The translations under genes and the position numbers were made by a program. From a virus (taxonomy: Duplodnaviria > Heunggongvirae > Uroviricota > Caudoviricetes), in IMG/VR virus record IMGVR_UViG_2874951433_000005: a stretch of DNA of 10,905 bases; one strand, written 5' to 3'. Positions 401 to 1,075 of this stretch are shown here, piece after piece. Each line of letters starts with the position of its first letter. Position 1 is the first letter of the stretch. The notes beneath the pieces are model-generated. The model was not told the DNA's origin. It made no database searches and saw only the letters and a program-made list of their open reading frames with translations.

Positions 401-1075
401 TCATCGGATACCCCCTTTCATTTCGCGGATTAGCGCCCGTAACAGTTCCGGAGTGAGAGGGTCAAACAGTTTTACCACACCTGATTTAAGATGCAGCTCG
501 CACCGTGGGACGTTTCCGGGAGCCCCCTCAGGGCGCTCATCATGCTTGTTACGCCAGAAGGGATTTGTAACTGGTCTGGTCGGCTCCGGCGTATCAGTCA
601 GTGCCACCGGGACAGGCATGCATTCCTGTATGTCATCATCGCTCAGTAAGCCGTCCTCGTACTGGCTTTTCCATTTAAACAGCAGGTTATCATTGATATC
701 GTGTTCTCTGGCGATCCGGGCAACAACAGCCCCAGGCTGTAATGCCTGCTTAGCCAGACGGACCTTAAATTCACGGCTATAGCTGGTTCGCCGTTCTTTT
801 CGCCATGAGCCTTCTCTGATTTGAGGCTCTGTTAATTCCTTCTTTCTGTTGGCATAAAGGATGGCGTCAAGTTGAGCGAATGAAACTGAATCGGGCAATG
901 GCCATGCGATACCGGATGCAAGAAATCGCTGAAAAATCGTATGTATTGTGGAATGACTGAGACCCAGACGCTGAGCGATGGCCCGGATGGTCAGTTTATC
1001 TTCAAATCTTAAACGCAGGGCATCAGGCAAATAAGAACGGAAGCAGGGAATATCTTTTGTTGTCTGGGAATTCAT
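401..1075 (-). CDS. Transposase-like DNA-binding protein with two HTH regions (224 aa); family unresolved, possibly an IS remnant
   Basis: N-terminal HTH-like segment (LTIRAIAQRLGLSHSTIHTIFQRF) plus a second IS3/IS66 OrfA-like motif (SYSREFKVRLAKQALQPGAVVARIAREHDINDNLLFKWKSQYEDG). The stop is 20 nt from the IS629 end. I could not assign it to a specific IS family. Confidence 0.45.
   Translation of the reverse strand: MNSQTTKDIPCFRSYLPDALRLRFEDKLTIRAIAQRLGLSHSTIHTIFQRFLASGIAWPLPDSVSFAQLDAILYANRKKELTEPQIREGSWRKERRTSYSREFKVRLAKQALQPGAVVARIAREHDINDNLLFKWKSQYEDGLLSDDDIQECMPVPVALTDTPEPTRPVTNPFWRNKHDERPEGAPGNVPRCELHLKSGVVKLFDPLTPELLRALIREMKGGIR

What the first reader, a model, noticed from the sequence alone, without database searches (positions are those of the whole stretch)
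401..1075. Unclassified 224-aa double-HTH, transposase-like protein between IS629 and the tandem repeat
It has two helix-turn-helix regions, the second resembling the IS3/IS66 OrfA type, but I cannot place it in a known IS family. It ends 20 bp from the IS629 terminus and is transcribed away from the 17-bp tandem repeat. It could be the accessory protein of an undescribed or degenerate element, or a phage small-terminase or regulator.
Basis: inference. Interest (0 to 1): 0.4.

Follow-up and report, generated by a model that had tools for sequence, protein, structure and literature searches.

The report
Truncated ISSfl3 (IS66-family) tnpA gene
The 224-aa "double helix-turn-helix" ORF is the ordinary, already catalogued TnpA accessory protein of the IS66-family insertion sequence ISSfl3, sitting in a dead 776-bp stump of that element in a Shigella flexneri chromosome.

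Summary
The ORF exists exactly as described: window 401-1075, minus strand, 224 aa, with two helix-turn-helix domains. It is not unclassified. It matches NCBIfam NF038385 "IS66-like element accessory protein TnpA" over its full length (283.7 bits, cutoff 150). It is identical to RefSeq WP_134807626.1 of Shigella flexneri. Its DNA (382-1157) is 99.6% identical to the left end of ISSfl3-type elements, which elsewhere carry tnpA-tnpB-tnpC.

Only the left 776 bp of the 2,753-bp element survive here:
- the left inverted-repeat tip at 1141-1157
- an 82-bp leader
- an intact tnpA
- the first 7 codons of tnpB, with the ATGA overlap

An IS629-type element cuts it off at 381/382. The rest of ISSfl3 is absent beyond that IS, so the stump cannot move.

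The "17-bp tandem repeat" is the ISSfl3 left-end tip plus a second, orphan copy of the same tip (1158-1174). That orphan abuts the last 66 bp of IS911. This is a nested pile of insertion sequences, typical of Shigella.

The terminase and regulator readings find no support. The finding is already known and of low interest. One minor curiosity: three different IS66-family elements abut IS911 at the same internal position.

The parts
1..381 (-). Left part of an IS629/IS1203-type IS3-family element. Its orfA lies at 1-327 and its terminal inverted repeat ends at 381. This element truncates ISSfl3.
   Evidence: It is 98.7% identical over 1-381 to annotated IS3-family elements. In the source chromosome the IS spans L005 10695-12000 and carries TGAACCGCCCCGGG-type repeats at both ends. 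Homology to ISSfl3 begins at 382.
382..1157 (-). ISSfl3-type (IS66-family) remnant: the left 776 bp of a 2,753-bp element.
   Evidence: It shows 3 mismatches in 776 bp against copies in pCFSAN029787_01 (L001 3501-4276) and in L004. The intact reference copy, L003 1524-4276, has an 8-bp target duplication GCTGCTCA.
382..404 (-). First 23 nt of tnpB (ATGATAACGCTGCCGACCGGTAC, translating to MITLPTG). The ATG overlaps the tnpA stop codon as ATGA. The gene is cut off by the IS629-type element.
   Evidence: The translation matches the N-terminus of TnpB in the L001 copy, MITLPTGTKIW.... The tnpA/tnpB overlap is annotated in L001 and L003.
401..1075 (-). tnpA, encoding the 224-aa IS66-like accessory protein TnpA. 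Layout: N-terminal HTH (about residues 11-73), linker, HTH_Tnp_1 (about 94-145), disordered stretch, then a conserved C-terminal hairpin plus helix (192-219).
   Evidence: NF038385 scores 283.7 bits against a cutoff of 150 and covers residues 12-205 of the protein, model positions 1-189 of 190. The protein is identical to WP_134807626.1. The structure model is and the alignment A2.
1076..1157 (-). 82-bp leader of ISSfl3, including the left inverted repeat. The tip GTAAGCGCCCCATCAGC lies at 1157 down to 1141 on the minus strand.
   Evidence: The alignment with L001 is identical up to 1157 and unrelated beyond it. Tips were compared with L003.
1158..1174 (-). Orphan second copy of the 17-bp ISSfl3 left-end tip. 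Together with 1141-1157 it forms the '17-bp tandem repeat'.
   Evidence: The 17 bases match the left tip (GTAAGCGCCCC-ATCAGC), not the right tip (GTAAGCGCCCC-GAGAAG) of the intact copy.
1175..1240 (+). Last 66 bp of IS911, i.e. its right end with the terminal inverted repeat. The junction position is ambiguous by 1 nt.
   Evidence: Window 1174-1240 is 100% identical to the ends of annotated IS911-family elements.
1241..1783 (+). Internal fragment of a 329-aa hypothetical gene, bounded by the IS911 stump and by IS600. The mechanical ORF is 1226-1786. It is not part of the IS66 element.
   Evidence: Window 1238-1783 is about 95% identical to WP_000207512.1-type genes near ynfD/ynfE in E. coli. 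It has no Pfam or PHROG family.
1784..3037 (+). IS600 copy (context only). A second, inverted copy lies at 9706-10905.
   Evidence: It is 98.6-99% identical to the annotated IS600 in L001.

Best explanation
**Identity.** Window 401-1075 (minus strand) is tnpA of an ISSfl3-type insertion sequence of the IS66 family. In intact copies, tnpA is the first gene of a translationally coupled tnpA-tnpB-tnpC operon. That operon is flanked by inverted repeats starting GTAAGCG, and insertion creates an 8-bp target duplication. TnpC is the DDE transposase; TnpA and TnpB are accessory proteins.

**Likely mechanism (inferred).** TnpA carries two HTH domains on a flexible linker plus a conserved C-terminal hairpin-helix module. 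I infer that it is a bipartite DNA-binding factor. It would recognise the ends or leader of its own element, and help assemble or regulate the TnpC transpososome. The C-terminal module is the probable contact to TnpB or TnpC.

**State of this copy (shown).** The element is dead. An IS629-type element sits 22 nt into tnpB. Everything beyond that point is gone: the rest of tnpB, tnpC and the right inverted repeat. The stump therefore cannot transpose.

**Possible residual activity (inferred).** The tnpA reading frame is intact and differs from copies in full elements by only 2 residues. It could still be expressed and act in trans on intact ISSfl3 copies.

**The tandem repeat (partly inferred).** The adjacent '17-bp tandem repeat' is the left-end tip of this copy followed by the orphan tip of an earlier ISSfl3-type copy. 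That earlier copy had inserted into IS911. The simplest history is a nested insertion 17 bp inside the earlier copy's end.
For: **Family membership**
- NF038385 scores 283.7 bits against a cutoff of 150 and is full-length. The short-form model NF047595 matches residues 95-218.
- PF01527 and PF13384 both score above threshold.
- PHROG 2422 'transposase' covers residues 1-224 with E = 5e-111.

**Identity**
- The exact protein is WP_134807626.1, 'IS66-like element accessory protein TnpA [Shigella flexneri]'.
- The window is 100% identical to part of S. flexneri chromosome CP026799.1.

**Element**
- Window 382-1157 is 99.6% identical to copies followed by tnpB and an 'IS66-like element ISSfl3 family transposase'.
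- An intact copy in S. flexneri encodes TnpA (224 aa), TnpB (PF05717) and TnpC (LZ_Tnp_IS66, zf-IS66, DDE_Tnp_IS66).
- The intact copy in L003 is 2,753 bp, has GTAAGCGCCCC tips and the target duplication GCTGCTCA.

**Truncation**
- The tnpB remnant encodes MITLPTG.
- No ISSfl3 sequence and no target duplication lie beyond the IS629-type element.
- No inverted repeats flank the region.

**Architecture**
- The structure model shows two confident HTH bundles plus a C-terminal hairpin and helix.
- Residues C192, G199, L203, P206, E210, L212, L215 and E218 are invariant across long and short TnpA forms.

**Literature**
- IS66 elements consist of tnpABC, with tnpC the presumed transposase (PMC6778807).
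- ISSfl3 is listed among the insertion sequences of S. flexneri (PMC7373316).
- From my own knowledge of Han et al. 2001 (PMID 11418571), which I could not read here: in IS679, tnpA, tnpB and tnpC are all needed for transposition.
Against: - No experiment is known to me that shows what TnpA binds, so the DNA-end-binding role is inferred from the domain content.
- The promoter scan found no sigma-70-like site in 330-1300, so expression of the orphan gene is unproven.
- The fold search gave no significant structural match (best E = 0.089).
- The nested-insertion origin of the orphan tip cannot be tested, because the right side of the element is deleted.
Confidence: 0.93

Rival explanations
1. 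It is the accessory protein of an undescribed IS family, or a chimeric pseudogene made by fusing an IS21-type N-terminal HTH to an IS3-type OrfA.
For: The N-terminal HTH has a weak local resemblance to the N-terminus of the IS21 transposase: NF033546, E = 1.8e-4, 21 bits against a cutoff of 160. IstA structures top the fold list, but not significantly. HTH_Tnp_1 is shared with IS3 OrfA.
Against: The whole 224-aa architecture is a curated NCBIfam family. It is conserved at 39-98% identity in Escherichia, Shigella, Klebsiella, Citrobacter, Salmonella, Buttiauxella and Pantoea. It is always followed by IS66 tnpB and tnpC in the intact copies examined.
Confidence: 0.02
2. It is a phage small-terminase subunit or a phage/host transcriptional regulator of the surrounding Qin-like prophage remnant.
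For: There is a sub-threshold Terminase_5 hit (17.8 bits, cutoff 20.3) and many generic HTH hits. Prophage genes lie nearby.
Against: The terminase hit covers only 24 residues of one HTH. No terminase PHROG matches, and the best PHROGs are transposase families. The DNA is 99.6% identical to IS copies on plasmids and chromosomes in unrelated contexts. The gene is separated from the prophage genes by an IS911 stump, a gene fragment and IS600.
Confidence: 0.01
3. It is a domesticated orphan TnpA, retained because it now serves the host or represses other ISSfl3 copies, rather than being mere debris.
For: The reading frame is intact and nearly at consensus: 2 aa differences from copies in full elements. 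Its own leader and inverted repeat are retained.
Against: With 3 nt differences in 776 bp, the truncation is probably recent, so intactness needs no selection. This exact protein sequence is recorded on a single contig. No promoter-like site was found.
Confidence: 0.04

Closest known systems
TnpA of ISSfl3-type IS66-family elements (e.g. WP_046881738.1 in E. coli pCFSAN029787_01 and FDAARGOS_943; P0002/WP_161550538.1 in S. flexneri)
   Same: Same length of 224 aa and 98-99% protein identity. Same leader and left inverted repeat. Same ATGA overlap with tnpB.
   Different: Here the element is cut off 22 nt into tnpB. The protein carries L47I plus one further substitution relative to each compared copy.
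IS679 (IS66 family, plasmid pB171), the experimentally studied relative (Han et al. 2001, PMID 11418571; from my own knowledge, paper not readable here)
   Same: Three-gene tnpA-tnpB-tnpC layout, GTAAGCG-type ends and an 8-bp target duplication.
   Different: Sequence identity to IS679 TnpA was not measured here. IS679 is a functional element, whereas this copy is a stump.
Short-form IS66 TnpA (about 113-141 aa; NF047595 ISRel24 type; the 139-141-aa TnpA proteins of Shigella and E. coli; ISEc8 TnpA, annotated in L007 but not aligned here)
   Same: They share the HTH_Tnp_1 domain and the C-terminal hairpin-helix module. They are 36-41% identical over residues of about 96-224 (57% of the query), and eight C-terminal positions are invariant.
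   Different: The short form lacks the N-terminal extension of about 93 aa that carries the first HTH (HTH_23).
IS3-family OrfA (e.g. IS2, IS911, IS629 OrfA)
   Same: Same Pfam domain, PF01527 HTH_Tnp_1. Each is the first small ORF of a multi-ORF IS.
   Different: There is no programmed frameshift fusion to the transposase. IS66 TnpA has its own C-terminal module. Scores to IS3 and IS2 models are far below their cutoffs: 27-29 bits against 160-229.
N-terminal HTH of IS21 IstA, and bipartite HTH DNA-binding domains (Tc3 transposase, paired domain)
   Same: Two HTH units on a flexible linker. There is a weak sequence hit to the IS21 model over residues 20-109. IstA, Tc3 and paired-domain structures appear in the fold-search list.
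   Different: None of these matches is significant (fold E of 0.09 or worse). TnpA has no catalytic domain. This is a lead only.

Membership tests
IS66-like element accessory protein TnpA (long form, NCBIfam NF038385) | Whole-protein score above the curated cutoff, with end-to-end coverage of the model | tested here: met
   283.7 bits against a cutoff of 150; protein residues 12-205 cover model positions 1-189 of 190.
IS66-like element accessory protein TnpA (long form, NCBIfam NF038385) | HTH_Tnp_1 (PF01527) domain plus the conserved C-terminal module shared with short-form TnpA | tested here: met
   PF01527 scores 83.1 bits. NF047595 matches residues 95-218 (71.8 bits, just under its own equivalog cutoff of 74, as expected for a different subfamily). 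C-terminal residues are invariant in alignment A2.
IS66-family insertion sequence (ISSfl3 type) | tnpA is followed by tnpB, with overlapping stop and start codons (ATGA) | tested here: met
   ATGA lies at 401-404 and the tnpB remnant encodes MITLPTG, identical to the start of TnpB in the L001 copy. Full tnpB is present in L001, L003 and L008.
IS66-family insertion sequence (ISSfl3 type) | Terminal inverted repeat beginning 5'-GTAAGCG | tested here: met
   The left tip GTAAGCGCCCCATCAGC ends at 1157. The right tip GTAAGCGCCCCGAGAAG is seen in the intact copy L003. No right end is present in the window.
IS66-family insertion sequence (ISSfl3 type) | DDE transposase TnpC (PF03050) encoded downstream | tested here: not met
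   TnpC is absent from the window and from the 10 kb beyond the IS629-type element. It is present in intact relatives. This copy is therefore a remnant, not a functional member.
IS66-family insertion sequence (ISSfl3 type) | 8-bp target-site duplication | not testable with these tools
   The right end is deleted here. The duplication GCTGCTCA is seen around the intact copy in L003.
Phage small terminase (Terminase_5 / gpP-like) | Pfam score above the gathering threshold, and linkage to a large-terminase gene | tested here: not met
   17.8 bits against a cutoff of 20.3, covering 24 residues only. No terminase PHROG matches. No terminase gene lies nearby.
IS3-family OrfA / IS21 IstA | Score above the curated cutoff of the family model | tested here: not met
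   transpos_IS3 27.6 bits against 160; IS2 TnpA 29.1 against 229; transpos_IS21 21.1 against 160.

The most novel reading that the evidence does not exclude
Two things are not excluded.

(a) The intact orphan tnpA may still be expressed and modulate transposition of the full ISSfl3 copies in the same genome.

(b) IS66-family transposases may have an unrecognised target preference. Three different family members (an ISSfl3-type tip, ISEc8 and ISEc47) abut IS911 at the same internal nucleotide, give or take one, in three unrelated contexts. In addition, ISSfl3 is twice found 17-20 bp inside the end of another IS66-type element.
Probability: 0.2. Interest if true: 0.3.

Novelty: already known. 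Interest (0 to 1): 0.07.

Why it matters
It matters little. This is a correctly annotated accessory gene of a described insertion sequence, sitting in one of the IS pile-ups that are typical of Shigella chromosomes; the reference chromosomes carry 229-348 IS insertions each (PMC7373316).

Its use is practical. The region 1-3037 of the window should be read as nested IS debris, in this order: IS629-type element, ISSfl3 stump, orphan ISSfl3 tip, IS911 stump, gene fragment, IS600. It should not be read as a new element or a phage gene.

The biochemical role of IS66 TnpA is, to my knowledge, still undefined. Any general interest lies there, not in this copy.

Tried and rejected
- **Small terminase.** Only a sub-threshold hit to one HTH, and no terminase PHROG. 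Rejected.
- **Non-mobile regulator.** No full-length match in Pfam, NCBIfam or PDB sequences; the best PDB hit has E = 0.83. Rejected.
- **Inverted repeats bounding 382-1225.** None were found. This is explained by the loss of the right end.
- **Rest of ISSfl3 elsewhere in the window or beyond the IS629-type element.** None was found.
- **Fold search of the AlphaFold2 model against the PDB.** Nothing significant. The model has pTM 0.32 because of its flexible linkers, so only the per-domain features were used.
- **Promoter scan of 330-1300.** No sigma-70-like site, so expression remains open.
- **The tandem left-end tip elsewhere.**
  - No E. coli record (5,426 genomes) or PLSDB plasmid carries the same tandem tip or the same junction.
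  - One related case, L004, has a different IS66-type tip next to ISSfl3.
- **Exact-pattern scans for the IS66-tip/IS911 junction.**
  - Genome contigs: 0 hits.
  - Metagenome contigs: 1 hit, which is the ISEc47 structure already seen.
- **Literature.** The Han et al. 2001 paper on IS679 could not be read. Statements about it rest on my own knowledge.

Full report

Yes. The ORF listing returns a 224-aa ATG-started ORF at 401-1075 on the minus strand.

Pfam finds two separate helix-turn-helix (HTH) regions, both above their gathering scores:
- HTH_23 at residues 23-56 (39.9 bits, cutoff 24.6)
- HTH_Tnp_1 at residues 94-170 (83.1 bits, cutoff 24.1)

An AlphaFold2 model was built on a 28-sequence alignment. 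It shows:
- two confident helical bundles, with helices at 11-24, 30-37, 41-54 and 66-73 in the first, and at 101-112, 118-124 and 129-140 in the second; block-mean pLDDT is 82-90
- disordered stretches at 77-95 and 148-188
- a C-terminal beta-hairpin (192-203) followed by a helix (209-219)

The stop codon lies at 401-403. The neighbouring IS3-family element ends at 381, leaving 19 intervening bases. The 17-bp tandem repeat is at 1140-1174, upstream of the gene.

**2. What is it?**

The protein matches NCBIfam NF038385, 'IS66-like element accessory protein TnpA', from end to end. The score is 283.7 bits against a cutoff of 150, E = 5.5e-85, covering model positions 1-189 of 190. The model for the short form of TnpA (NF047595) matches residues 95-218. 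PHROG 2422 ('transposase') covers residues 1-224 with E = 5e-111.

The exact sequence is RefSeq WP_134807626.1, 'IS66-like element accessory protein TnpA [Shigella flexneri]'. It is encoded once, on S. flexneri chromosome CP026799.1, and the whole window is 100% identical to part of that chromosome. Older Shigella annotations call members of the same 90% cluster 'ISSfl4 ORF1'. PGAP names the linked transposase 'IS66-like element ISSfl3 family transposase'.

At the DNA level, window 382-1157 has 3 mismatches in 776 bp against copies on an E. coli plasmid (L001) and on L004. In intact copies, tnpA is followed by two genes:
- tnpB (115 aa, PF05717)
- tnpC (533 aa; LZ_Tnp_IS66, zf-IS66, DDE_Tnp_IS66, DDE_Tnp_IS66_C)

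The intact copy in L003 spans 1524-4276, which is 2,753 bp. Its features are:
- left tip GTAAGCGCCCCATCAGC
- right tip GTAAGCGCCCCGAGAAG
- 8-bp target duplication GCTGCTCA

**3. Anatomy of this copy**

Reading on the minus strand, the remnant contains:
- the left tip, at 1157 down to 1141
- an 82-nt leader
- tnpA, at 1075 down to 401
- the tnpB start codon overlapping the tnpA stop as ATGA (404-401)
- seven tnpB codons (MITLPTG, identical to the TnpB N-terminus in the L001 copy)

The element stops at 382, where the terminal repeat of the IS629/IS1203-type element begins at 381.

In the source chromosome that IS spans L005 10695-12000. The sequence beyond it is not ISSfl3, and the 3-bp flanks differ (TAC against CAG). 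The remaining 2 kb or so of ISSfl3 was therefore lost by a deletion or recombination at the IS3-family element, not merely displaced. No inverted repeats flank the region. The stump lacks a transposase and a right end, so it cannot transpose.

TnpA itself is intact. It differs from the two compared copies only at L47I plus H178P (against L001) or D129N (against L004). This indicates that the truncation is recent.

**4. The '17-bp tandem repeat' and the flank**

Copy 1 (1141-1157) is the left tip of this ISSfl3. Homology with other copies ends exactly at 1157.

Copy 2 (1158-1174) is a second, orphan copy of the same tip. It matches the left tip, not the right tip.

From 1174/1175 to 1240 the sequence is the last 66 bp of IS911, 100% identical to annotated IS911 ends. 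Intact IS911 reads ...GGGTTACCCCC|AAACGAATCGG at the junction point.

The simplest history, which is inferred, has three steps:
- An ISSfl3-type copy inserted into IS911.
- A second copy inserted 17 bp inside the first copy's left end.
- The IS629-associated deletion removed everything to the right.

Replication slippage is an alternative origin for the duplicated tip. The right side is gone, so the two cannot be told apart here.

The same tandem tip was not found in 5,426 E. coli genomes or in PLSDB plasmids.

Further along the window come two more pieces. Window 1241-1783 is an internal fragment of a 329-aa hypothetical gene. Window 1784-3037 is IS600.

The wider window is a Qin-like prophage remnant carrying relBE, hok, rem, DUF968, rusA and Q. 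It is bracketed by two inverted IS600 copies and lies next to ynfE-F in the chromosome.

**5. How it most likely works**

Three points are shown:
- Domain content.
- Operon position.
- Conservation. The long form occurs at 39-98% identity in Escherichia, Shigella, Klebsiella, Citrobacter, Salmonella, Buttiauxella and Pantoea. The short 139-141-aa forms align with residues of about 96-224. C192, G199, L203, P206, E210, L212, L215 and E218 are invariant across both forms.

Established knowledge adds two points:
- IS66 elements are tnpABC units with TnpC as the presumed transposase (PMC6778807).
- In IS679 all three genes are needed for transposition (Han et al. 2001, from my own knowledge; not readable here).

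The following is inferred. TnpA is a bipartite DNA-binding accessory factor. It would recognise its element's ends or leader through the two HTH domains, and contact TnpB or TnpC through the conserved C-terminal module.

The fold search gave only non-significant hits. IS21 IstA, the Tc3 bipartite domain and the paired domain are among them, with E of 0.09 or worse. This is a lead, not evidence.

No sigma-70-like promoter was detected, so expression of the orphan copy is open.

**6. Comparison, novelty and verdict**

The finding is a member of a curated, named family, and a remnant of a described element. ISSfl3 is listed among the S. flexneri insertion sequences, printed there as 'ISSlf3' (PMC7373316).

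The 'undescribed/unclassified', terminase and regulator options are not supported. Novelty: already known. Interest: low.

One small curiosity is worth recording. Three different IS66-family elements abut IS911 at the same internal position, within 1 nt, in three different genomic contexts:
- the ISSfl3-type tip in this window
- ISEc8 in L007
- ISEc47 in L013 and L014

These junctions are seen. They hint at a target hot spot, which was not surveyed systematically.

Noticed in passing
window 1174|1175; L007 about 3007|3008; L013 about 3207; L014 about 3691 (minus strand): Three different IS66-family elements abut the last 65-66 bp of IS911 at the same internal IS911 position, within 1 nt. They are the ISSfl3-type tip, the ISEc8 right end and the ISEc47 right end. 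The three genomic contexts are unrelated: a hypothetical-gene fragment, lpxM and dprA. This may be an IS66-family target hot spot inside IS911.
   Followed up: partly
window 1158-1174; L004 1564-1583: The ISSfl3 left tip is followed directly, in the same orientation, by an orphan IS66-type end tip. Here the orphan is 17 bp of the same tip. In L004 it is 20 bp of a different IS66-type element (GTAAGCGTCATCTCAGTGTC). Only one of about 1,500 ISSfl3-like left ends in E. coli genomes shows this, so it is rare.
   Followed up: partly
window 1784-3037 (+) and 9706-10905 (-): Two IS600 copies in inverted orientation bracket a Qin-like prophage remnant (relB/relE, hok, rem, DUF968, rusA, antiterminator Q, holin). 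This arrangement could mediate inversion of the segment.
   Followed up: no
L005 10695-12000 (window 1-381 is its left part): The IS629/IS1203-type element has no 3-bp target duplication (TAC against CAG). Its orfB is called as only 206 aa. The IS itself appears degraded, and its right flank results from a deletion or recombination.
   Followed up: partly
window 1241-1783: This is an internal fragment of a 329-aa hypothetical protein with no Pfam or PHROG family. It corresponds to roughly residues 105-286 of WP_000207512.1. In other E. coli the gene lies in a small island next to ynfD/ynfE.
   Followed up: partly
L003 1210-1551 and 4319-6292: In E. coli FDAARGOS_943 an intact ISSfl3 sits inside another IS66-family element, just upstream of that element's tnpB start, with the target duplication GCTGCTCA. 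This is another case of IS66-in-IS66 nesting.
   Followed up: no
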